From contig NC_013959.1 in NCBI RefSeq assembly GCF_000025705.1, positions 827,063-859,062 of the forward strand: 32,000 bases of DNA. Direction: 5' to 3'. Shown piece after piece: positions 5,155-17,217 of the stretch; position 1 is the stretch's first letter, and each line of letters begins with the position of its first letter. The notes under the pieces were generated by a model. The model was not told where the DNA came from and did not search any database. It saw only the letters and a list, made by a program, of their open reading frames with translations. The translations under genes and the position numbers were made by a program. The stretch comes from Sideroxydans lithotrophicus ES-1. GTDB lineage: Bacteria > Pseudomonadota > Gammaproteobacteria > Burkholderiales > Gallionellaceae.

Positions 5155-6054
5155 TTACGCAGTCCATAACGGTTCCCGCAACAAAGGCGGCAGCGACTCG
5201 GTCACCGGCTGCGGCGTGTCCAGCCGGATCAGCGGCAGGTTGAGGCGGTGCGTCAACTCATCCAGGCGGTGTTGGCGTGCAGCCCATTTCTCCTGCCACG
5301 CGCTACGGCTGCTTGCGCCATCCAGCCACCACAGGCGACCGGGCAATCCGGCGCGGTAACTGCCGTCCGGCAAGCCCGTGTTTTCCAGCGGATCGACCAG
5401 CCACAGCAGACGGCAGTCGCAACGCAACGAGATGCTCGCCAACAGATTCTCGGTGTCGTCGTCCAGCCCGCTGAAGTCGCTCAGCACCAGCACCAGACTG
5501 CCGGGTTGCAGCAGCGGTTTCAGCGCGATGAGCGATGCATTCAAACTGTCCGGGCTGGGCATGCCGGGGCGGGTGGGTTGCGCTGCCACCAGCGCTTCGA
5601 GCACCGGCAGCACGCCGGCTTCGCGTGCGCGCGGACGGAAGATGCGCAGATGCTCGTTGCCGCCGATCAGCGCACCCAGCCGGTCGCCGTCCATCGCGGC
5701 GACCCATGCCAGCAGCGCTGCCGAACGCAACAGCAGCGAGGACTTGAGCTGATGACGGCTGCCGAAATACAGGCCTGGATGCAAGTCGGCGACCAGCCAC
5801 ACCGGGCGCTCGCGCTCTTCGCGGAACAGCTTGGTATGCGGCTGGCCGCGCCGCGCCGTGACGCGCCAGTCGATGTTGCGCGCGTCATCGCCGGGCGTGT
5901 ACAGGCGCACCTCTTCGAACTCCAGGCCGCGGCCGCGCTGCGCGCTGCGGTGCGATCCTTGCAGTCGCGCCAGTACGGGGCGGCGCGCATGCAGGTTGAG
6001 ATCGTGTGCGGTACCGCGCAAGGCAACCAGTTCTGCCAGGTCGGGCAGGATCAT
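5155..6054 (-). CDS. DUF58 domain protein (VWA-like, MoxR partner)
   Basis: The track ORF is 5155..6438, but its first ~128 aa are Arg/Ala-rich and overlap moxR. The ATG at 6054 (MILPDLAELVALRG) forms an ATGA overlap with the moxR stop at 6051. DUF58 signature: GLEFEEVRLYTPGDDARNIDWRVTAR. Confidence 0.8.
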   Translation of the reverse strand: MILPDLAELVALRGTAHDLNLHARRPVLARLQGSHRSAQRGRGLEFEEVRLYTPGDDARNIDWRVTARRGQPHTKLFREERERPVWLVADLHPGLYFGSRHQLKSSLLLRSAALLAWVAAMDGDRLGALIGGNEHLRIFRPRAREAGVLPVLEALVAAQPTRPGMPSPDSLNASLIALKPLLQPGSLVLVLSDFSGLDDDTENLLASISLRCDCRLLWLVDPLENTGLPDGSYRAGLPGRLWWLDGASSRSAWQEKWAARQHRLDELTHRLNLPLIRLDTPQPVTESLPPLLREPLWTA

Positions 6055-7043
6055 GGGGCCGGCACCTGTCGCAACAGTTCCTCGACGCAATCCTGCGCCG
6101 AGACGCCATGCGCCTGCGCGGTGTAGTCCAGCAGCAGGCGGTGGCGCAACGCATCCGGTGCGATGGCCTGCACATCCTCGGGGCTGACATAGTCGCGCCC
6201 ATCCAGCCAGGCCAGTGCACGCGCGCCGCGTTCCATGGCAAGGGCCGCACGCGGACTGGCGCCCCAGCGCAGCCACTCTTTCAGTTTGCTGCTGTACTTG
6301 TCGGGGATGCGCGTGGCCTCGACCAGTGCGGCGATATATTCGGCGACCGAATCGGCCAGCGTGAGCTCGAGCACTTCGCGCCGCGCAGCGAACACCTGTT
6401 CCTGCGTCAGCGCAAAGCGCGGCGGCGACAGTTCGCATGCTTCCCGCGCTTCGCGCCGCGACAGTTCCATGATGCGCAGCGTGGTGGCGCGATCGGGATA
6501 GTCCACCAGCGTGTGCAGCATGAAACGGTCGAGTTGTGCTTCCGGCAGCGGGTAGGTGCCTTCATGCTCGATCGGGTTCTGCGTGGCCATCACCAGGAAC
6601 AGGCGCGGCAACGGATAGGTGGCAGAGCCGACGCTGACCTGACGCTCGGCCATCGCTTCGAGCAATGCAGACTGCACCTTGGCCGGGGCGCGGTTGATCT
6701 CGTCGGCGAGGATCAGGTTGTGGAACAAGGGGCCGCGCTGAAAATGAAAGCCGCCTTCCTCGGGCCGGTAGATATCGGAACCGGTGAGGTCCGCCGGCAG
6801 CATGTCAGGCGTGAACTGCAGGCGCTGGAAATTCCCTTCGATGCCGTGTGCCAGCGCCTTGATGGCACGCGTCTTGGCCAGGCCAGGCGGCCCTTCCACC
6901 AGCAAGTGGCCGTCGGCCAGCAGTGCCAGTAGCAGGCGTTCCACCAGGTTGTCCTGGCCCAGTATCTGTTCGTTGAGGTAAGCGCGAAGTCCGTTGAATG
7001 CTGAGATTGCCGTGGTGGCATGTGGAGCGACACTGACATCCAT
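6051..7043 (-). CDS. moxR: MoxR-family AAA+ ATPase
   Basis: The ATG at 7043 (MDVSVAPHATT) is preceded by AAAGGA. Walker A LVEGPPGLAKT; Walker B LILADEINRA; MoxR-typical FMLHTLVDYP and GASPRAALAM. Confidence 0.9.
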   Translation of the reverse strand: MDVSVAPHATTAISAFNGLRAYLNEQILGQDNLVERLLLALLADGHLLVEGPPGLAKTRAIKALAHGIEGNFQRLQFTPDMLPADLTGSDIYRPEEGGFHFQRGPLFHNLILADEINRAPAKVQSALLEAMAERQVSVGSATYPLPRLFLVMATQNPIEHEGTYPLPEAQLDRFMLHTLVDYPDRATTLRIMELSRREAREACELSPPRFALTQEQVFAARREVLELTLADSVAEYIAALVEATRIPDKYSSKLKEWLRWGASPRAALAMERGARALAWLDGRDYVSPEDVQAIAPDALRHRLLLDYTAQAHGVSAQDCVEELLRQVPAP

Positions 7044-7348
7044 CGTGGATCCTTTCCATATGTTTTTCTTGTGGCATACAGAAAGGAAATTTTTTGCAAA
7101 GTTCCCGAAGAGTGTGTCGGCGCGCATTTGAATGCGAAAACGCACTTCGGTTTTGGATTAAAAATCCTCGTGTTATTGAAGAAAGATTGAGTGAGCGATG
7201 TGCCACATCAAATCGGGAATGAAACACGACCTGCAGCGGTGAATGTCAAATATAGGTTATGCAGATTCGACTTGAGACTGTTGCCTGGCATCGAGTGGTG
7301 CAATAAACCCACACAGGATATGAGGGAGTATACTTTTGCCAAACTCCG

Positions 7349-8122
7349 ATGTTGATCAAGGCCTTTTCGATGATACCTGCCAAGAGCGATGCCGACAGCC
7401 AGACCATCCATTCACTGCGCCGATGGCGCGTGATGGAGATCCTGACGGAAAAGGGAACGCCAAGCCGTCACGTTTATGGGCATGACATAACGAATGACAC
7501 GGCTCGCGCATCCACCAGCATCAAGGAGTTCGACCGGGAAGCGATGACCATCACCACCCACAGTGGCAGGCTTTACAAGCTACTGGGCGCGCCAGGTCAC
7601 TCTCGTGCCGGAGCGATCGTCTGGAAGGAATGGTGCCACAAACATCATGTCATTTCAGAGACGGATGTGACCGACGAATACTTCAGCGTCGATAAATTAT
7701 TCTCCAACGTCAACGAAGAGATCTATACCGGACTGCGAGAATTGGTCGATTCGGTTTTTCCTTTGCGCTGTGGAAATTGCGGTCGGGAATATCGAAACTC
7801 CGCCGAATTCCTTGCGGCTACTCAACCTGTGCATGCGAACTCCAGTGGCTTGCAACAAAGCAGGGACAATGAAGGCCACATGGTCGTGGATCTGTTTCGG
7901 AATTGTGTCTGTGGTTCGACCTTGCTCGAAAGTTTCGGAAATCGGCGCGACCTTGGCGAAGATGGCGTCAAGCGCCGGATGCGATTCCAGGATATGGTCG
8001 ACAAGCTGGTTGCGATGGGCTACACGGAAGAAATCATACGAGGCGAACTGCTTAAACTCATGCGCGGACAGCCGAATGATGTGATCAATCTGGCAAGGCT
8101 CGCGAACTCCGAGCATCGTTAG
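7349..8122 (+). CDS. Hypothetical protein with CxxC...CxC Zn-ribbon-like motif
   Basis: 257 aa ORF in the lower-GC stretch. Motifs are PLRCGNCGREY and, about 40 aa later, NCVCGSTL. I recognise no family. The start is uncertain (alternative ATGs at 7370 and 7433). Confidence 0.5.
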   Translation: MLIKAFSMIPAKSDADSQTIHSLRRWRVMEILTEKGTPSRHVYGHDITNDTARASTSIKEFDREAMTITTHSGRLYKLLGAPGHSRAGAIVWKEWCHKHHVISETDVTDEYFSVDKLFSNVNEEIYTGLRELVDSVFPLRCGNCGREYRNSAEFLAATQPVHANSSGLQQSRDNEGHMVVDLFRNCVCGSTLLESFGNRRDLGEDGVKRRMRFQDMVDKLVAMGYTEEIIRGELLKLMRGQPNDVINLARLANSEHR

Positions 8123-8173: not shown

Positions 8174-8428
8174 ATGAAGCTGATCGAACAGGACGAGAAG
8201 GATGATTTCCTGGCGGTGTTGAAACGATTCCAGCTTTCCCCGGAAGATTTTGACCTGGCGGAGACCGACACCACAGACTCCAAAACCGATGAGATATTCG
8301 CGCTCACCGGGTTTGTCGTGATCACGCAAAAATCTACCAACCTGAAAGCCCAATACCCAATTGGGGACGGGTCCAGATGGGTTGAGGAATTCGAGAGGGA
8401 TGTTGAAAAAAACCTGTTTGGTAGATGA
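8174..8428 (+). CDS. Hypothetical small acidic protein
   Basis: 84 aa, with AAAGG about 12 nt upstream of the ATG. It starts 51 bp after the previous gene on the same strand. No family recognised. Confidence 0.45.
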   Translation: MKLIEQDEKDDFLAVLKRFQLSPEDFDLAETDTTDSKTDEIFALTGFVVITQKSTNLKAQYPIGDGSRWVEEFERDVEKNLFGR

Positions 8429-8637
8429 CGGCTAGATGCTGTCGGTTGGCCCGTTAATACTAAACGTCTCAAACTCGGCCATTGCTGCCTTTCAGGCCCT
8501 ACTGACTGAGCGGCCGGTTTTGAACCCTAAACAGACTCCACAGTGACTACGAAATCCGGAGCGATTCAATCAATCGGTTAGCCTAAACAACAACCGCACA
8601 GCCAAAATGAAAACTCACGGGAAGGTAGCGCTTAAGG

Positions 8638-9507
8638 CTAGGCAGCTTGTGGCGCTTCCGATTGCGGTGGTGCAACAAGTCTCTGACTAAAAAACATAAC
8701 TTCAGATCCTGTGTACCTGCGCTGGGCAGTGTAATGCAGGCCATAGCTCATGGAACGAGCATATGCGTACATGTCCTTAATTTCCTCAACGGCGTCATAA
8801 GACACAACCCACGGTCTACGGAAGCGGGGGCTACCGAGAAGACGGGCAATCTTCAAATGGTCTTGATGCTGATAGAAATTACGATATAAACCTTCGCCTT
8901 TAACGTAGTAAGGCGGGTCTAGATAGATCAACGATTTCTGCGGCAAAAACTGATGACAGCGAAGCAGCAGCTCGTGTGCATCCTCTTCGTAGACATCGAT
9001 AGATTTTGAGTATTGCCCAATACGTTCTAGACGTAGGCATAACTCATCTCTCATAAATCTCTCATCTACCTTATAGGTTCCTGCCTGAGATTTTCCGCCA
9101 ATAACTCCGCCCTTTAGAATTCCGGACCGATTAGTACGGTTCATAAATAGCGTAGCAAATCCCCGTTCCAGCTCGCTCCCTTTCTTATCCCCTAACATCA
9201 CAGATCGCCAATGATGCCAAGCGTCCATAGTGACGGGCTCATTAGCAACTAGATCAATCAATTTTCTGGTGCAGCGTGTGGCCACTTTCCAGAATACCGC
9301 TACAGCTGGGTCAGCATCATTTATATGAATATGATCGACTATCCCGTCAACAAGCAGCACAAGAGCTACGCCAGCCCCTCCCGCATACGGCTCCAAATAA
9401 TGACCGCCCTCCAGCCCGTTGCGCTGGATGATCTCGGCTATCAACGGGGCGAATCGAGCCTTCCCCCCTGGATAACGCAATGGCGTATATAGTTTGTTTG
9501 AGTACAT
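8638..9507 (-). CDS. Dam-type (D12 class) N6-adenine DNA methyltransferase
   Basis: 289 aa. N-terminal YPGGKARFAPLI, AdoMet motif EPYAGGAGVAL and catalytic DPPYYVKG. AGGA Shine-Dalgarno upstream of the ATG at 9507. Confidence 0.85.
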   Translation of the reverse strand: MYSNKLYTPLRYPGGKARFAPLIAEIIQRNGLEGGHYLEPYAGGAGVALVLLVDGIVDHIHINDADPAVAVFWKVATRCTRKLIDLVANEPVTMDAWHHWRSVMLGDKKGSELERGFATLFMNRTNRSGILKGGVIGGKSQAGTYKVDERFMRDELCLRLERIGQYSKSIDVYEEDAHELLLRCHQFLPQKSLIYLDPPYYVKGEGLYRNFYQHQDHLKIARLLGSPRFRRPWVVSYDAVEEIKDMYAYARSMSYGLHYTAQRRYTGSEVMFFSQRLVAPPQSEAPQAA

Positions 9508-9545
9508 TGTTCCTACTTTAAGTCATGTAAATTTAGTTGGTCAGT

Positions 9546-11294
9546 CTAATTTTTTAGCCGCAGGGCCACTACCTCTACAGCTGCCTCAAATTCAGTAAGA
9601 AACTTGGTGACTTCTGTGGGTCTGTCGGCGACCCAAGACTCCAACAATTTCCAGTCCTTGATGTGCGCGAGGTTACTCGTCCACCACTTCTTTGTTTTGT
9701 CTCGATCAGCCAAGACAGTTATGTCGGTCTCCAAGAGGTGTTCTGAAATGTATGTCGTTGTAATCGGAAGGCGATCGAGTGCAGCCTCATGGCTATCTGG
9801 ATCACTCACTATATTTTTTAGATACTGAATTAATGTACGCTCAGGGGCTAGCGGCCGCTTTATTAGATCCTTGTTTTCGGCTCCCGTTTTCTTTCCCGTA
9901 TACATATCGCCTGGAAGGCGGGCAGTATGTTTGTATTTTTCATTCGCCTGGCTCGCCGAGGCATCTGCATCCAAGACCATAACTACTTTTCTAAAGTACG
10001 GATCATGGTCCCCTAACGCAGCCAAATTTTCACAGCCGACCCCAAGAGGCATACAGTCCAACTTCACACCGTGCTTAGATCCAAGCGTCCTTAGGTATGT
10101 CGTTCCTGCAATTGCCTTAAATACTGCTGCGGCCTCATCGTCTTCAAAATAGACTTTTAGCTTCGGTAGCTTCGCCTTCGCTGCCTTTTTTGGAGGCAGC
10201 AATTCCATATCCTCAAAGATAGTCTGGAGTGAGGGACTATCCAGAGCCTTCGGCCGGCCTGGGTCGCGCAAATAGACGACACCATCTAAGCGTTTAGCAC
10301 TTAATGGTTCTGATTCAGGATGCACTGCCTCAATCAACCGCAGGGAGTGAGTAGTCGCAATAATTTGTAGGCCAAGTTTTTTAGCGTGGGATTTCAGCGC
10401 CTTGACCAACTTGCCTATCGCATGTGGATGAAACCCCGCGTCTAGCTCATCGATGATAAGCAAGCCCCCTGGATAATCTGCCCACTCTCGTTTCAGCTTT
10501 TGGAATGACGCGAGAGCTAAGGCAATGCTGCCCAGGCTATCTTGTCCAAGTGAGACGCACTTTGGATCAAACTCATAGGCAGGCTGTCCTGAAAGCTTTC
10601 CTGTATTTTTGATGCGATGAGCGGTAATTTTTGAAGAAGTTGCTTCGCTACCAGAGATAACACTATTAAAAAAACTAGCTATCAAAGCCGCATCGGATGG
10701 ATCCATTGTCTTGGTACTACTAGCGACAGTCCCTTGCTCAGCCTCTCCTAGGGGCAATACTCGAGTCATTCCAAGATATATCGTTGGCAGAGGGACCTTC
10801 CCCGCCGGGCCAACCACAACTTTTCTACTCTCGCTAACAAACGTGCTTGTAGAGGGTTCTACTGTGCGGGAAACAACTCTAACCTCACTGGAACTGGAGT
10901 CGTCGCTACGGGGTTCCACTCGACATGCTTTCCCTACGACCTCTTTCTCATCGATCAGAAAGTGAATTAGGGGCTCCCCTAAAGTGGGGGGCGGCCCCAG
11001 CTTTGACTCGTAATCGCCAACATAATCAAGATGAATAATTTCCCCGAAATTCGCTTGGTATGTTTTATCGAAATAGGAAGTATTTTGCGCGCGGGTATAT
11101 CCCAGCTTGTGCCCCCTAAGAACGCGGCTTGTCAGCCCAGACTGATGCGCGATTAAGCCGAGGATTGTCGACTTTCCAATCCCGTTGTGGCCTGCAATGA
11201 CCGTAATCCGCTCTGCTATTGGAATTTTCAGACTCTTGAGGCGGCGAAACTTACATCCATCAAAGGTCAGTGAGGTAACCCTAATGCGCGGCAT
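9546..11294 (-). CDS. OLD-family-like ABC ATPase with C-terminal Toprim-like domain (putative ATP-dependent nuclease)
   Basis: 582 aa. Walker A GHNGIGKST (aa 35-43), signature-like SLGQDS (248-253), Walker B GLLIIDELD (277-285), H-loop ATTHS. The C-terminal half has a Toprim-style acidic pair, KVYFEDDE (E383) and VMVLDADAS (D442/D444), spaced about 59 aa apart. It ends 38 bp upstream of the methylase on the same strand. Confidence 0.7.
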   Translation of the reverse strand: MPRIRVTSLTFDGCKFRRLKSLKIPIAERITVIAGHNGIGKSTILGLIAHQSGLTSRVLRGHKLGYTRAQNTSYFDKTYQANFGEIIHLDYVGDYESKLGPPPTLGEPLIHFLIDEKEVVGKACRVEPRSDDSSSSEVRVVSRTVEPSTSTFVSESRKVVVGPAGKVPLPTIYLGMTRVLPLGEAEQGTVASSTKTMDPSDAALIASFFNSVISGSEATSSKITAHRIKNTGKLSGQPAYEFDPKCVSLGQDSLGSIALALASFQKLKREWADYPGGLLIIDELDAGFHPHAIGKLVKALKSHAKKLGLQIIATTHSLRLIEAVHPESEPLSAKRLDGVVYLRDPGRPKALDSPSLQTIFEDMELLPPKKAAKAKLPKLKVYFEDDEAAAVFKAIAGTTYLRTLGSKHGVKLDCMPLGVGCENLAALGDHDPYFRKVVMVLDADASASQANEKYKHTARLPGDMYTGKKTGAENKDLIKRPLAPERTLIQYLKNIVSDPDSHEAALDRLPITTTYISEHLLETDITVLADRDKTKKWWTSNLAHIKDWKLLESWVADRPTEVTKFLTEFEAAVEVVALRLKN

Positions 11295-11642
11295 TTGCGT
11301 CCTAATTTTGAGAATCTAAAGGTCGCAAATATAAACCATTATTTGCAATAGTCATATCGCTAGTTTTCGAGGGAAATAGGGCTCCCATCTTTGGTCAAAA
11401 GCCAAATAAATTCCCATGGACGAAGTGACCTCGCAGGCCGAGAAACACGACCGTCGGGTTTCAAGCTGGTGGAGGCTTAGCTCAATCAAAATACAGCCCT
11501 TGAGGCTGCCTAAGATGTGGACGTCTTGTTTGCCTGTTTGCGAGACTCAATTGCCGTCTTAATTCGAAACACCTAGTCCACCGGGTTTAGTGGACGACCA
11601 CTCCACTGCATTGCAACCGTCACCGGCCGAAATCCGAAGACT

Positions 11643-11786: not shown

Positions 11787-12806
11787 CTAGCTTTTGCCGT
11801 CAAGCAAGGCAAAGGTGTTGTCGTCGCGCAAACTTTCCGGAAATACATGAATTTTGTCGAAGCTCAATTGCGGTAGTCGCTCCTGGAGCAGCTGGTAAAC
11901 AGCGCGGGCTTGCGCCAAGTCGCGCGGTTTTTTCATGGGGTTTCGATCCTCTTTTTGGCTCAACCATGTTTTGTAGAAGACGAAGGCGCGCGGATCGACC
12001 GTTACCATTTCGGCCATGCTGCCGTTTGTGCCGACTACAACTTGGCGGAATTTCGGGGAACTCAGTAGCCAATCCATGTTCTTGATTTTGGTTGCCCAAA
12101 AATCATCCGGGTTGGCGATTAATTGCGGATGCTCCTTGTCGTCAAAGAACGATGCGGGGCGGCGTTTGATCAGGTCGATCATATAGCCTTGTGAATTGGC
12201 TGCGCTGTATTCCTGATCTTTCAGCAGCTCAAAGGTCGGATCAATCTTTTTTAGCACGCCGATCAATCCGTACTTGTTGAAATGCTCGTCGCCATCTGCG
12301 GCAAGGGTGATTCGTTTGCGCGAATCCCACAGTAGATCCATATCTGTGGTTGCCGTCACGTCACCGTTGAATCGAACGCCCGCCTGCGTTTCATAGGCGT
12401 AGAGCGCATTAGTTCCGATCACCATGAAATGGTCCTGCAATCCCGTACGCCTGATTTCTTCCAGCAAGCCGACCACAACATTCGGCGTGCGTCCTACCCG
12501 TAAAGCGGCATTAAGTCGGGTATGCGTGGCGATGGCGGCACTGAGTTGTTTCAGGGTTTGCTCGGAAGAGGCTTTGCCTTTCTTGAATTCCTCCAGAATT
12601 CTTTCGGTCTCCGGCGTCCTCACTCCAAGGCTCTTAGCTTGCCTTGCAGCGTATTCGCGATATAGATAGTCGCGACCTTTGACGGTTTTCCAGTACATGC
12701 TGCCACGATAATTCTGCGCACGACGTTCCGCTGCAAGCCAGGATTTTCTGGCCTGTTCGGCATCGATGTATTGCCGGATCTGGTTTTCGTCGAGAGCGGT
12801 GAACAT
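11787..12806 (-). CDS. Nucleotidyltransferase-fold protein (GSU2403-like family, from memory)
   Basis: 339 aa. NTase-type motif pair VIGTNALYAYE ... TATTDMDLLWD (G[ST]..., DxD). No obvious partner gene on either side. Confidence 0.6.
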   Translation of the reverse strand: MFTALDENQIRQYIDAEQARKSWLAAERRAQNYRGSMYWKTVKGRDYLYREYAARQAKSLGVRTPETERILEEFKKGKASSEQTLKQLSAAIATHTRLNAALRVGRTPNVVVGLLEEIRRTGLQDHFMVIGTNALYAYETQAGVRFNGDVTATTDMDLLWDSRKRITLAADGDEHFNKYGLIGVLKKIDPTFELLKDQEYSAANSQGYMIDLIKRRPASFFDDKEHPQLIANPDDFWATKIKNMDWLLSSPKFRQVVVGTNGSMAEMVTVDPRAFVFYKTWLSQKEDRNPMKKPRDLAQARAVYQLLQERLPQLSFDKIHVFPESLRDDNTFALLDGKS

Positions 12807-13052: not shown

Positions 13053-13283
13053 TCATGCAGTGTTTTCTTCGCGCCGATGCCGGACTTTTTTCTCCACCTT
13101 ATCTGCGACATAAGCTGCGAACACATCCACGTTGTCATAGCCCTGTGCCAGAGCGAATTCCGACAGCGCGTCGATCAGGTTTCTGGTCTGTTCGATCTCG
13201 GCGAAGCTGCGGCCGCAGGTCAGGCATCTTTCGCCATCGTCGCGGCAGGCGGTCTTGCCTTTGCAGGGATTGAAGGTGCTCAA
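13053..13283 (-). CDS. DUF1289-like small Cys-rich protein
   Basis: NPCKGKTACRDDGERCLTCGRSFAEIEQT fits the CxGxC...CxGCxRxxxEI pattern. The start codon is TTG (13283..13281) and overlaps the TGA of the upstream gene (TTGA). Confidence 0.6.
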   Translation of the reverse strand: MSTFNPCKGKTACRDDGERCLTCGRSFAEIEQTRNLIDALSEFALAQGYDNVDVFAAYVADKVEKKVRHRREENTA

Positions 13284-13714
13284 GCGGGGCTGCCTTCCGT
13301 ATCGAAGATCAGCATCGTCGTTTCGCCGTCGATGTCGGTGATTTCGGCCGCGCTCAACTTGCCGTTGCCGTGGTAGGTGTAACGGTGTGCGAGTTCGATC
13401 TCGCCGTAAGCGAGTTTGTCGAAACCGGTGAGGCGGTCGTTCTCGTCGAAGTAGCCCTGGAAGTAGGTGTTGCGGTTCTCCACTTCGCTGGCCTGCAGTT
13501 CGTTCACCAGCTTGAACGGCAGCTTCACTCCGGTGTAGGTCACAAAGAACCGGAGCTTCCCCCGGTTCTCATTCCGATCCCACTTCTTCAGTGACACTGC
13601 GTTGGCTTCTTCGCTCACTCCTTGCCGTGCTTCTTGCACTGTCTTTGTTGTTTGCTCGTCGCCGCATTGTTTCACTTTTGAATTGGAATCGGAATATTTA
13701 CTTTTGGTACCCAT
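13280..13714 (-). CDS. Conserved hypothetical protein (possibly DUF6156-like)
   Basis: 144 aa. Low-complexity N-terminus, then RFFVTYTGVKLPFKLV...NRNTYFQGYFDENDRLTGFDKLAYGEIELAHRYTYHGNGKL. It starts 4 nt after the Nif11 stop. Confidence 0.55.
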   Translation of the reverse strand: MGTKSKYSDSNSKVKQCGDEQTTKTVQEARQGVSEEANAVSLKKWDRNENRGKLRFFVTYTGVKLPFKLVNELQASEVENRNTYFQGYFDENDRLTGFDKLAYGEIELAHRYTYHGNGKLSAAEITDIDGETTMLIFDTEGSPA

Positions 13715-13718
13715 CTAC

Positions 13719-13937
13719 TCAGGCGCGCAGCAGCGCTTTGGCAAGACGCTCGGAGAGCTGGTCGGCGGTGAACTGCGGCTCGTTGGGCGGATACATCTCG
13801 TCCTCGATGAAGTTGAAGCCATGCTCCTGTGCCAGTGCGAGCAGTTCGCGCACTTTCTGGCAGGCGACCAGTTTTGCTTTCAGTTCCTGATCTGCTTTTG
13901 CCTTGTCGGAAAAACCCTTGATGTCTTTGATTGCCAT
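13719..13937 (-). CDS. Nif11-domain protein
   Basis: The track ORF is 13719..14030. I prefer the ATG at 13937 (MAIKDIKGFSDKAKADQELKAKLVACQKVRELLALAQEHGFNF), which matches the Nif11 N-terminal domain pattern. Confidence 0.7.
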   Translation of the reverse strand: MAIKDIKGFSDKAKADQELKAKLVACQKVRELLALAQEHGFNFIEDEMYPPNEPQFTADQLSERLAKALLRA

Positions 13938-14035
13938 GTTTGTCCCATGAATTTTGGAGTAAATGAAACAACGGGACACGTTCGATCCCGTTTTGTCGGT
14001 TGGATTGTCGTTTTTTTCAACCTTGAGCATCAGGC

Positions 14036-14051
14036 AGCAAAATGCATGCCT
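14036..14051 (-). promoter_or_regulatory. sigma54 (-24/-12) promoter upstream of the Nif11 mini-operon
   Basis: The minus strand reads AGGCAT-GCATT-TTGCT, with correct GG-N10-GC spacing. It sits 43 bp after the nifA stop and about 100 bp upstream of the Nif11 ATG. Confidence 0.6.
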
Positions 14052-14093
14052 GCCCGATAAGGCGAGTGCCGCAGATCAAAGGCGATGTTCTTC

Positions 14094-17217
<3,124 letters not shown>

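What the first reader, a model, noticed from the sequence alone, without database searches (positions are those of the whole stretch)
8638..11294. OLD-like ATPase-Toprim nuclease gene directly coupled to a Dam-type methylase: candidate unconventional restriction-modification / anti-phage module
The 582-aa protein has the ABC-type ATPase motifs and a C-terminal Toprim-style E...DxD arrangement characteristic of OLD-family nucleases. Phage P2 Old is of similar size. As far as I recall, described OLD contexts are four: stand-alone, paired with a UvrD-like helicase (Gabija), retron-associated, and the split AriA/AriB form (PARIS). Here the nuclease-like gene lies 38 bp upstream of, and co-oriented with, a D12-class N6-adenine methyltransferase. 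Both sit in a lower-GC stretch. That is the logic of an R-M pair, with methylation protecting self from a Toprim nuclease. I do not recognise this pairing as a described system.
Basis: partly seen in the sequence, partly recalled or inferred. Interest (0 to 1): 0.75.

Follow-up and report, generated by a model that had tools for sequence, protein, structure and literature searches.

The report
ATPase effector paired with PD-λ-5 methylase
A mobile 2.9-kb two-gene cassette pairs a DNA adenine methylase from a known anti-phage system (PD-λ-5) with an ATP-driven probable nuclease in place of that system's usual effector, an apparently undescribed but widespread variant of methylation-linked phage defence.

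Summary
On the minus strand, a 582-aa ABC-type ATPase gene (9546-11294) lies 38 bp upstream of a 289-aa D12 adenine methylase gene (8638-9507), in low-GC DNA.

The pairing is far beyond chance. In 77 genome loci found through the ATPase, every locus complete enough to judge (73) has the methylase beside it, across at least six phyla.

The methylase belongs to the PD-Lambda-5_B family (E 1.5e-109). PD-λ-5 is a validated E. coli defence system whose other gene is a ParB/HEPN protein, not an ATPase. In viral contigs this methylase family sits next to the ATPase (21 loci), next to PD-λ-5_A (33) or next to both (2). Methylases 92% identical carry different effectors on the same prophage backbone, so the ATPase is an interchangeable alternative effector.

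The pair moves as a discrete 2.9-kb cassette. It lies beside integrases in Streptococcus, Citrobacter and E. coli prophages, and occurs in 85 of 5,426 complete E. coli genomes.

The "OLD-like" label holds only for the ATPase domain. The C-terminal domain has invariant E384, D385, D442xD444, E485 and K535, but no Pfam, HH-suite or Foldseek support as Toprim.

Verdict: a probably undescribed variant of a known kind. The mechanism (methylation-gated ATP-dependent nuclease, or abortive-infection guard) is untested.

The parts
8605..11532 (-). The mobile two-gene cassette (promoter region, ATPase-effector gene, methylase gene).
   Evidence: This is the only stretch shared with the Methyloversatilis MAG locus L001: 88.5% nt identity over 2,935 bp, with unrelated flanks. 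GC is 0.482 against 0.62-0.65 in the flanks. In L001 it is likewise a 0.48-GC insert after dnaN-gyrB.
9546..11294 (-). Gene for the 582-aa ABC-type ATPase with a C-terminal acidic-cluster domain (putative effector).
   Evidence: ORF. Pfam AAA_15, AAA_21 and SMC_N. 890 homologues. AF2 model pLDDT 86. Best Foldseek PDB matches are retron Eco8 OLD, PtuA, GajA, TsOLD and SMC heads, E about 1e-9.
10290..11294 (-). N-terminal ABC ATPase domain (aa 1 to about 335). Walker A is at 11166-11192, Walker B (DEL) at 10443-10451, H-loop (HS) at 10344-10349.
   Evidence: Motifs invariant in 75-76 of 76 members. Codons checked. hhalign against the P2 Old ATPase region gives probability 96%.
9549..10199 (-). 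C-terminal domain (aa 366-582): a four-stranded alpha/beta core plus a helical bundle. It carries YFEDDE (10134-10151), DAD (9963-9971), PE (9840-9845) and K535 (9690-9692).
   Evidence: E384, D442 and D444 are 76/76; D385 75/76; E485 71 E plus 4 D; K535 74/76. AF2 pLDDT 90. No Pfam, PADLOC, HH-suite or Foldseek assignment. The domain is found almost only at about residues 340-580 of 520-640-aa proteins.
9508..9545 (-). 38-bp intergenic spacer with a ribosome-binding site (AGGA) for the methylase gene.
   Evidence: Sequence read. No terminator-like site in the spacer.
8638..9507 (-). Gene for the 289-aa D12-class N6-adenine DNA methyltransferase of the PD-Lambda-5_B family. SAM motif EPYAGGAGV is at 9367-9393 and catalytic DPPY at 8908-8919.
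   Evidence: PF02086. PADLOC PD-Lambda-5_B E 1.5e-109 and MTase_II PDLC03358 E 1.3e-89. DPPY and EPxxGG invariant in 71/71.
11328..11355 (-). Promoter-like site (ATGACT-16-TATATT), 34 nt upstream of the ATPase start codon.
   Evidence: Consensus scan; not above the shuffle expectation. It lies inside the conserved cassette. Inferred, not shown.
11493..11509 (-). Terminator-like hairpin near the upstream edge of the cassette, insulating it from the upstream NTP_transf_8 gene.
   Evidence: Consensus scan. Inferred.

Best explanation
This is a self-contained, horizontally mobile two-gene anti-phage cassette. It is a variant of the PD-λ-5 type of methylase-linked defence system.

**Methylase role.** The downstream gene encodes a catalytically intact D12 adenine methylase of the PD-λ-5_B family. 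It marks the host's own DNA with N6-methyladenine.

**Effector role.** The upstream gene replaces PD-λ-5's ParB/HEPN effector. It encodes an OLD/PtuA-like ABC ATPase fused to a family-specific C-terminal domain. That domain's invariant acidic cluster (E384, D385, D442xD444, E485, plus K535) most likely forms a metal-dependent nuclease site.

**Proposed action.** ATP binding and hydrolysis in the ABC head controls the nuclease, which acts on DNA that lacks the methylase's mark. This is restriction-modification logic.

**Shown here.**
- The gene pair and its motifs.
- The obligate pairing.
- Membership of the methylase family.
- Effector interchange with PD-λ-5_A.
- Mobility and prophage location.

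**Inferred.**
- Methylation of self DNA.
- Nuclease activity.
- Methylation sensitivity of the effector.
- Anti-phage function of this variant.
For: **Pairing.** The methylase is adjacent in 73 of 77 ATPase-seeded loci. The other four are cut contigs or a truncated ATPase. Gene order varies (upstream, downstream, convergent), but the association holds across Proteobacteria, Bacteroidales, Bacillota, Campylobacter, Mucispirillum, Nitrospinota and Bryobacterales. No third conserved gene exists. The two proteins broadly co-evolve (r=0.70, Mantel p=0.001).

**Link to a validated system.**
- The methylase is PD-Lambda-5_B (E 1.5e-109).
- PD-λ-5 gave broad phage protection and had to be cloned in an mrr-deleted host, which implies active adenine methylation (PMC9519451).

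**Effector interchange.**
- In 80 methylase-seeded viral loci, 21 have the ATPase, 33 have PD-λ-5_A and 2 have both.
- Four genome loci are ATPase->PD-λ-5_A->methylase.
- Methylases 92% identical carry either effector on the same prophage backbone, with only the effector segment non-homologous.

**Catalytic competence.**
- DPPY and the SAM motif are 71/71.
- The Walker A, Walker B and H-loop motifs and the C-terminal acidic residues are invariant in 76 members at 24-92% identity.

**Mobility and phage context.**
- A 2.9-kb cassette is shared between unrelated contexts.
- It lies next to the integrase in Streptococcus, Citrobacter and E. coli prophages, and in a P2-like Vibrio phage.

**Precedent.** MADS combines a methylase with an ABC ATPase (mad3, the best PADLOC match to this ATPase) and a Toprim-fold nuclease (mad4) in methylation-based self/non-self defence (bioRxiv 10.1101/2023.03.30.534895; PMC12065111).
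Against: - No experiment exists on this variant.
- Nuclease activity rests on conserved acidic residues alone. The C-terminal domain matches no known nuclease family by Pfam, PADLOC, hhalign or Foldseek.
- Characterised OLD-like ABC ATPases (P2 Old, GajA, AriA, PtuA, retron effectors) are infection-triggered rather than methylation readers.
- Vassallo et al. call PD-λ-5 a compact 'RM+Abi' system, and their Table S1 lists no escape plaques for it. That is not typical of a simple R-M system.
- In Neisseria flavescens (L063) the methylase gene is frameshifted while the ATPase keeps all key residues. This argues against strict lethality of the effector without methylation, unless it is a sequencing error or phase variation.
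Confidence: 0.55

Rival explanations
1. Abortive-infection 'guard' model. The ATPase-effector does not read methylation. It is held inactive, possibly by binding the methylase, and is released when a phage factor appears or interferes with the methylase or with SAM supply. It then kills the cell by cleaving DNA or RNA. Analogues are PrrC with EcoprrI, PARIS sensing Ocr, and the OLD-ABC 'backup effectors' attached to BREX and R-M loci.
For: - The ATPase is OLD/PtuA/AriA-like, and those relatives are trigger-activated effectors.
- In three-gene loci and in Vibrio phage ValB1MD-2 the ATPase accompanies a complete PD-λ-5, as a backup layer would.
- PD-λ-5 was described as 'RM+Abi' with no escape plaques.
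- OLD-ABC-nuclease modules are reported as backup suicidal effectors next to RM-like systems (PMC12839542).
- The L063 locus has a frameshifted methylase with an intact ATPase.
Against: - In most loci, including this window, the ATPase and methylase are the only two genes. There is no primary restriction component to back up.
- The methylase's catalytic residues are invariant in all 71 paired loci. A mere scaffold or tripwire would not need that.
- The association is with one methylase family only. Generic backup modules associate with many systems.
Confidence: 0.27
2. Selfish addiction module. The pair behaves as a toxin/antitoxin-like or R-M-like post-segregational killing cassette. Its main effect is to stabilise the prophage or island that carries it, with little anti-phage benefit.
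For: - A compact mobile cassette is found at prophage edges and in islands.
- The pairing is obligate.
- The order effector-then-methylase, under one promoter, resembles many Type II R-M units.
Against: - The sister system PD-λ-5, with the same methylase family, protects against 9 of 10 phages tested.
- The effector exchange seen is typical of arms-race diversification.
- Addiction and defence are not mutually exclusive.
Confidence: 0.1
3. The pair is not a functional unit. An orphan regulatory Dam-like methylase simply happens to lie next to an unrelated ABC ATPase involved in DNA repair or chromosome maintenance.
For: PGAP names the pair only 'AAA family ATPase | DNA adenine methylase'. No defence-library model recognises the ATPase specifically.
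Against: - Adjacency in 73 of 73 assessable loci across phyla, despite rearranged gene order.
- Co-transfer as one 2.9-kb cassette.
- Prophage-accessory position.
- Patchy distribution: 85 of 5,426 E. coli genomes.
Confidence: 0.03

Closest known systems
PD-λ-5 (Vassallo et al. 2022; PADLOC/DefenseFinder PD-Lambda-5: A = ParB/HEPN protein, B = D12 adenine methylase)
   Same: - The methylase family is the same (E 1.5e-109).
- Both are two-gene operons ordered effector-then-methylase.
- Both are prophage or plasmid borne.
- The two effectors replace each other on near-identical methylases, and sometimes co-occur.
   Different: The effector is a 582-aa ABC ATPase with an unclassified C-terminal domain, not a ParB/HEPN protein. 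No PD-λ-5_A is present in the window. Current PD-λ-5 models would therefore not call this locus.
OLD-family ATPase-nucleases (P2 Old, class 1; also GajA class 2, retron class 3, AriA/AriB class 4, Cran1 class 5)
   Same: - Similar size: 582 against 586 aa.
- N-terminal AAA_15/AAA_21 ABC ATPase: hhalign probability 96% to the P2 Old ATPase and matching Foldseek hits.
- The C-terminal motifs are colinear with similar spacing. Here: E384, G420, D442xD444. P2 Old: E398, G430, D453xD455.
- K535 could play the role of OLD's catalytic lysine.
   Different: - There is no PF20469 or Toprim-clan hit, whereas P2 Old scores 1.2e-17.
- hhalign of the C-termini gives probability 0.1%.
- There is no Foldseek match to any Toprim structure.
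- The obligate partner is a methylase, a context not among the five described classes.
MADS (methylation-associated defence system, mad1-8)
   Same: - It combines an N6-adenine methylase with an ABC ATPase (mad3, the top PADLOC hit for this ATPase at 3.7e-17) and a Toprim-fold nuclease (mad4, DUF4276).
- It discriminates self by methylation.
   Different: - MADS has eight genes, with mad6-8 mandatory.
- Its methylase is Type I-like.
- Its ATPase and nuclease are separate proteins.
- The match here is at motif level only (bits far below the NCBIfam cut-off), and no other mad genes are nearby.
PrrC-EcoprrI and RloA/RloB (restriction-linked ABC ATPase plus nuclease modules)
   Same: An ABC-type NTPase coupled to a C-terminal or adjacent nuclease, genetically tied to a DNA-modification system. 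This is the 'RM+Abi' concept invoked for PD-λ-5.
   Different: - PrrC and RloC carry a HEPN anticodon nuclease and sit inside Type I hsd operons.
- RloB is a recognisable Toprim-clan Pfam family.
- None of these domains is detected here.
Classical Type II R-M with a Dam-like methylase (for example DpnII/MboI)
   Same: A two-gene unit with a D12 methylase. The methylase also matches a REBASE-derived Type II model (PDLC03358, 1.3e-89). It has a mobile, low-GC, cassette-like character.
   Different: The partner is an ATPase of about 580 aa with no PD-(D/E)xK, HNH, GIY-YIG or PLD nuclease domain. ATP dependence would be atypical for Type II.

Membership tests
PD-λ-5 defence system | B component: D12 adenine methylase matching PD-Lambda-5_B | tested here: met
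   PADLOC PDLC04018 E 1.5e-109, 364 bits, covering 5-284 of 289 aa. Bona fide PD-λ-5 methylases score similarly (393-408 bits).
PD-λ-5 defence system | A component: ParB/HEPN protein matching PD-Lambda-5_A, adjacent to B | tested here: not met
   No PD-Lambda-5_A hit for any neighbouring ORF. A local PD-λ-5_A HMM finds nothing in the six-frame window at E<=1. The adjacent gene is the ABC ATPase.
PD-λ-5 defence system | Experimentally shown anti-phage protection | not testable with these tools
   Shown only for the ECOR7 A+B system (PMC9519451).
OLD-family nucleases | N-terminal OLD-type ABC ATPase (AAA_15/AAA_21) with intact Walker A, Walker B, signature and H-loop motifs | tested here: met
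   Pfam AAA_15 1.3e-15 and AAA_21 1.2e-15. hhalign against the P2 Old N-terminus gives probability 96%. The PDB profile search hits TsOLD 6p74. Foldseek hits Eco8 OLD, GajA and TsOLD. Motifs are invariant.
OLD-family nucleases | C-terminal Toprim domain (PF20469 or the Toprim clan; beta2-beta1-beta3-beta4 sheet with Glu after beta1 and DxD after beta3) | tested here: inconclusive
   - Against: no Pfam hit in the window protein, in 10 full-length distant members or in 10 isolated C-terminal domains. hhalign probability is 0.1%. Foldseek against PDB and BFVD finds no Toprim, best E 0.03-0.06.
- For: the predicted four-stranded alpha/beta core has invariant E384 at the end of strand 1, G420 after strand 2 and D442xD444 after strand 3, with spacing like P2 Old.
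OLD-family nucleases | One of the described class contexts (stand-alone, UvrD-like GajB, retron RT/ncRNA, split AriA/AriB, archaeal Cran1) | tested here: not met
   The obligate neighbour is a methylase. No GajB, AriB, PtuB or retron models hit the neighbours. Classes as listed in PMC12796447.
Type II restriction-modification | Methylase plus an adjacent endonuclease of a recognised REase fold; restriction relieved by the cognate methylation | tested here: inconclusive
   The methylase part is met. The partner has no recognised REase domain. Methylation-sensitive cleavage cannot be tested here.
MADS | mad6, mad7 and mad8 present (mandatory in the authors' model), with mad2-4 | tested here: not met
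   Only a motif-level mad3 hit (60.9 bits in PADLOC; 29 bits against a 420-bit cut-off in NCBIfam). No other mad genes are in the cassette.
PrrC/RloC-type restriction-linked anticodon nucleases | C-terminal HEPN nuclease (Rx4-6H); embedded in a Type I hsd locus | tested here: not met
   No HEPN family hit. The conserved C-terminal residues are acidic plus K535 and W537, with no conserved His. No hsd genes are adjacent.

The most novel reading that the evidence does not exclude
The ATPase protein founds a new, methylase-dependent class of OLD-like enzymes. It would be an ATP-driven, methylation-sensitive restriction nuclease whose catalytic domain is either an extremely divergent Toprim or a new metal-dependent nuclease fold. 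It would be a plug-in alternative to the ParB/HEPN effector on the same methylase. PD-λ-5-type methylases would then be hubs that license interchangeable effectors, giving a new ATP-dependent two-gene form of restriction-modification.
Probability: 0.35. Interest if true: 0.75.

Novelty: new variant of a known kind. Interest (0 to 1): 0.6.

Why it matters
- **Scope of PD-λ-5.** It would extend PD-λ-5, a validated system with an unknown mechanism, into a modular family: one conserved methylase licensing at least two unrelated effectors. The natural effector swaps offer a direct handle on how the methylase and effector communicate.
- **OLD-like ATPases.** It would add a methylase-linked context to the OLD-like ABC ATPases. 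It would also define a family-specific C-terminal domain (at least 422 clusters at 50% identity) that no domain library covers.
- **Annotation gap.** Current defence finders would miss these loci, or would call the methylase an orphan or a Type II enzyme. The pair is in about 1.6% of complete E. coli genomes and in many prophages.
- **Tractability.** Native E. coli and Citrobacter versions exist, so the decisive experiments are easy.

Tried and rejected
**Toprim assignment, tested several ways without support.**
- Pfam on the window protein, on 10 distant full-length members and on 10 isolated C-terminal domains at E<=10 gave no Toprim-clan family.
- PADLOC on the C-terminal half gave nothing.
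- A PDB profile search matched only the ATPase motifs.
- hhalign of the family C-terminus against a P2 Old class-1 alignment gave probability 0.1-0.2%. Only a forced greedy alignment is colinear.
- Foldseek of the C-terminal model returned only generic flavodoxin-like folds from the PDB, and nothing from BFVD. RloB-like ranked 13 at E 0.23, which is not significant.

**Systems considered and rejected.**
- Gabija, PARIS, Septu, Menshen, AbiL and retron effectors: only ATPase-motif-level hits, and their partner genes are absent.
- MADS: its mandatory genes are absent.
- A HEPN reading of the C-terminal helical part: no Rx4-6H motif.

**Searches that found nothing.**
- Flanking repeats or att sites at the cassette ends, and tRNAs.
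- Literature searches for a described ATPase plus Dam-type methylase system.

**Gap in the literature check.** The key comparative paper on ABC-ATPase conflict systems (Krishnan et al. 2020, NAR 48:10045) is not held in the library. A prior in-silico mention there cannot be excluded.
Full report
**1. What is in the window**

Two co-oriented minus-strand ORFs occupy the stated coordinates. One encodes 582 aa (9546..11294) and the other 289 aa (8638..9507). They are 38 bp apart. An AGGA ribosome-binding site precedes the second start codon, and no terminator-like site lies between them. A promoter-like site lies at 11355-11328, and a terminator-like hairpin at 11509-11493 lies upstream of the first gene. 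Neither exceeds the shuffle expectation, so the operon structure is inferred. The cassette is 48% GC in a 62-65% GC background.

The upstream protein has AAA_15 and AAA_21 ABC-ATPase signatures over aa 15-64 and 247-321. Pfam finds nothing over aa 330-582. The downstream protein is a D12-class N6-adenine methylase (PF02086) with EPYAGGAGV and DPPY motifs.

**2. Is the pairing conserved?**

The ATPase has 890 homologues at E<=1e-5, mostly 555-610 aa. An alignment-seeded scan of one genome per species returned 77 loci at 25-92% identity. tblastn with the methylase found a homologue beside the ATPase in 73 of them. The other four are cut by a contig end (L035, L065, L069) or carry a truncated ATPase (L053).

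The arrangements vary:
- Usually ATPase then methylase.
- Methylase then ATPase in Bacteroidales and Mucispirillum.
- Convergent in two loci.
- One gene in between in four loci.

The taxa span Beta- and Gammaproteobacteria, Desulfuromonadales, Nitrospinota, Bryobacterales, Bacteroidales, Bacillaceae, Enterococcus, Campylobacter, Mucispirillum, Neisseria and Acinetobacter.

Clustering all ORFs in these loci found no third conserved gene. The pairwise identity matrices of the two proteins correlate (r=0.70, Mantel p=0.001). The methylase is the more conserved of the two, at mean 50% against 37% identity. There are discordances: L003 is 60% for the ATPase and 58% for the methylase, whereas L014 is 42% and 77%. 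These indicate some shuffling of the two genes within the family.

**3. The cassette is mobile**

The closest genome locus is L001, a Methyloversatilis MAG. It shares only window 8605-11532 (88.5% nt identity over 2,935 bp), and everything outside differs. In L001 the same segment is a 0.48-GC insert after dnaN-gyrB and before Fic and RhuM genes. No flanking repeats, tRNA or integrase are present in the window.

**4. The methylase belongs to a known defence system**

PADLOC assigns the methylase to PD-Lambda-5_B (E 1.5e-109) and to a REBASE-derived Type II model (1.3e-89).

PD-λ-5 comes from Vassallo et al. 2022 (PMC9519451):
- It is 'ParB/HEPN, methyltransferase', two genes from an ECOR7 prophage.
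- It affected plaquing of all but one of ten phages.
- It was cloned in an mrr-deleted host.

The ATPase is not PD-λ-5_A. Its best PADLOC matches (mad3, AriA, PtuA, AbiLi, NsnB, GajA) cover only the ATPase motifs. No PD-λ-5_A is present in the window.

**5. The ATPase is an alternative, and sometimes additional, effector for that methylase**

The 'gene in between' in L019, L027 (Luteimonas), L033 (Pandoraea) and L052 (Bacteroidales) is PD-λ-5_A, with E down to 1e-161. These are three-gene operons: ATPase, PD-λ-5_A, methylase.

Examples from phages and plasmids:
- Vibrio phage ValB1MD-2 (P2-like) has PD-λ-5_A (split into two ORFs), then the methylase, with a convergent full-length homologue of the ATPase (hhalign probability 100%).
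- A Kosakonia plasmid has the canonical A+B pair.
- Streptococcus prophages (phiGBSVK-D, Javan640 and Javan645) have ATPase then methylase next to the integrase.
- Citrobacter phage phiNP has the same arrangement.

Seeding instead from the methylase, a scan of viral contigs found 554 relatives among 600 pattern matches. Eighty were kept. With local HMMs, the partners were as follows:

| Partner next to the methylase | Loci |
|---|---|
| ATPase family | 21 |
| PD-λ-5_A | 33 |
| Both | 2 |
| Neither | 24 |

Of the 24 with neither, 14 are low-scoring other D12 methylases and several lie at contig ends.

Methylases 92% identical carry different effectors: L123 has PD-λ-5_A, while L124 and L054 have the ATPase. 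blastn shows the same prophage backbone and methylase (87% nt identity), with only the effector segment non-homologous. This is direct evidence of effector replacement on one methylase.

**6. Are both proteins likely active?**

In 71 paired methylases, DPPY and the SAM-binding EPxxGG are invariant.

In 76 ATPase-family members (24-92% identity), the following are invariant or nearly so:
- Walker A.
- The SxGQD signature.
- Walker B D282-E283.
- H316.
- In the C-terminal domain: E384 (76/76), D385 (75/76), D442 and D444 (76/76), P461 (76/76), E485 (71 E plus 4 D), K535 and W537 (74/76).

An acidic cluster with a lysine is what a metal-dependent nuclease site looks like. That reading is an inference.

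**7. Is the C-terminal domain a Toprim, and is the protein an OLD nuclease?**

The ATPase half is OLD/PtuA-like:
- hhalign against the P2 Old N-terminus gives probability 96%.
- A PDB profile search hits PtuA, retron ATPases and TsOLD 6p74.
- Foldseek of the full model (pLDDT 86) hits retron Eco8 OLD, PtuA, GajA, TsOLD and SMC heads at E about 1e-9.

The C-terminal half is not recognisably Toprim:
- P2 Old itself scores 1.2e-17 on PF20469. The window protein, 10 distant full-length members and 10 isolated C-terminal domains give no Toprim-clan hit, even at E<=10.
- hhalign of the family C-terminus against a 100-plus-sequence OLD class-1 C-terminus gives probability 0.1-0.2%.
- A separate model of aa 325-582 (pLDDT 90) matches only generic three-layer alpha/beta folds in the PDB (best E 0.058) and nothing in BFVD.

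What does agree with Toprim:
- The predicted order is strand, helix, strand, helix, strand.
- The invariant Glu lies at the end of strand 1, a Gly after strand 2, and DxD after strand 3.
- The spacing is close to P2 Old: E384, G420 and D442xD444 here, against E398, G430 and D453xD455 in P2 Old.
- A forced alignment is colinear.
- This matches the textbook description of Toprim quoted in PMC12065111.

A profile of the C-terminal domain against 1.84 billion cluster representatives found 422 proteins at E<=1e-3. The domain almost always lies at about residues 340-580 of 520-640-aa proteins. It is thus a family-specific domain in a fixed architecture.

**8. Mechanism**

Best-supported reading (about 0.55). 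This is a PD-λ-5-type cassette in which the methylase marks self DNA. The ABC-ATPase protein is the ATP-controlled effector, with its C-terminal acidic site as nuclease, acting on unmarked DNA.

The arguments for a methylation-dependent logic are:
- The obligate and exclusive association with one methylase family.
- The invariant methylase catalytic residues.
- The two-gene loci that contain no other effector.
- The interchangeability with a ParB/HEPN nuclease protein.
- The MADS precedent of methylase plus ABC ATPase plus Toprim-fold nuclease in methylation-based discrimination.

Main rival (about 0.27). This is a PrrC/PARIS-like guard that triggers abortive infection.
- In its favour: the behaviour of characterised OLD-like ATPases, the three-gene loci, the 'RM+Abi' description of PD-λ-5, the lack of escape plaques for PD-λ-5, and one Neisseria locus with a frameshifted methylase but an intact ATPase.
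- Against it: the two-gene architecture and the conserved methylase catalysis.

Pure addiction (about 0.10) and coincidental adjacency (about 0.03) are minor.

**9. Novelty**

- The OLD literature available to me lists five classes plus ten further unnamed clades, none defined by a methylase partner (PMC12796447).
- PADLOC 2.0.0, NCBIfam and Pfam have no specific model for this ATPase or its C-terminal domain.
- PGAP labels the E. coli copies 'AAA family ATPase | DNA adenine methylase'.
- Literature searches found no description of the pair.
- I could not read Krishnan et al. [quoted passage not shown]

Because the methylase and the general logic belong to PD-λ-5, and the ATPase belongs to the OLD-like assemblage, I class this as a new variant of a known kind.

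**10. Practical note**

The phiNP-type pair occurs in 85 of 5,426 complete E. coli genomes at 80% or more coverage. It is always chromosomal. In the locus inspected (H57, strain Ec-RL2-1X) it lies integrase, ATPase, methylase at a prophage edge. The decisive experiments can therefore be done in the native host species.

Noticed in passing
window 11787-12806 (-): A 339-aa NTP_transf_8 (PF12281, E 4.5e-68) nucleotidyltransferase-fold gene lies directly upstream of the cassette, in moderately low-GC DNA (0.52). It is not part of the conserved cassette and is absent from L001. It may be another accessory or toxin-antitoxin-like gene.
   Followed up: partly
window 7349-8122 (+) and 8174-8428 (+): Two ORFs (257 aa with CxxC...CxC zinc-ribbon-like motifs; 84 aa) are convergent on the methylase gene, in 0.51-GC DNA. 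They have no Pfam, PADLOC or NCBIfam family, and gene callers call them on the Logan contig too. Their function is unknown.
   Followed up: partly
window 13053-15680 (-): A small Cys-rich ORF (76 aa), DUF6156 (13280-13714), a Nif11-domain protein (13719-14030) and a GAF/sigma-54 NifA-like activator (14094-15680) lie here. The island therefore sits beside a nitrogen-fixation-type regulatory region. MoxR (6051-7145), with a further 427-aa ORF at 5155-6438 that was not family-searched, lies on the other side.
   Followed up: partly
L063 9360-10078 (Neisseria flavescens CD-NF3): The paired methylase gene is broken by a frameshift near an A-rich tract (GGGAAAACAAAAAATT), while the adjacent ATPase keeps all catalytic residues. 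This could be phase variation, decay or a sequencing error. It bears on whether the effector is toxic without methylation.
   Followed up: partly
L007 7912-11384: In a Desulfuromonadales MAG, a HerA-like ATPase (692 aa, PADLOC HerA E 9e-21) and a 460-aa protein lie between the ATPase and an oppositely oriented methylase. This looks like a second defence module inserted into, or fused with, the locus.
   Followed up: no
L142 4485-5882; L117 198-1217; L118, L122: A few viral contigs carry a true-family methylase (more than 275 bits) with neither the ATPase nor PD-λ-5_A next to it. Other ORFs (466 aa, 340 aa) sit directly upstream instead. These may be further effector types for the same methylase.
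   Followed up: no
L080 1946-3498 (Vibrio phage ValB1MD-2): PD-λ-5_A is split into two overlapping ORFs (252 and 265 aa) matching the N- and C-terminal halves of one PADLOC model. This could be a natural split, a frameshift or a programmed shift.
   Followed up: no
P0006 / P0244 (Microcoleus sp. MON1_C5, 57-kb contig): A cyanobacterial assembly carries an ATPase 84% identical and a methylase 88% identical to the window's betaproteobacterial-type pair. This is either recent cross-phylum transfer or contamination of the assembly.
   Followed up: no
search result, (P0364, P0369, P0383, P0384, P0484): Some hits to the C-terminal domain are about 200-250-aa proteins, or place the domain at residues 67-277 of a 422-aa protein. 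They may be gene fragments, or genuine split or alternative architectures, as in PARIS AriA/AriB.
   Followed up: no
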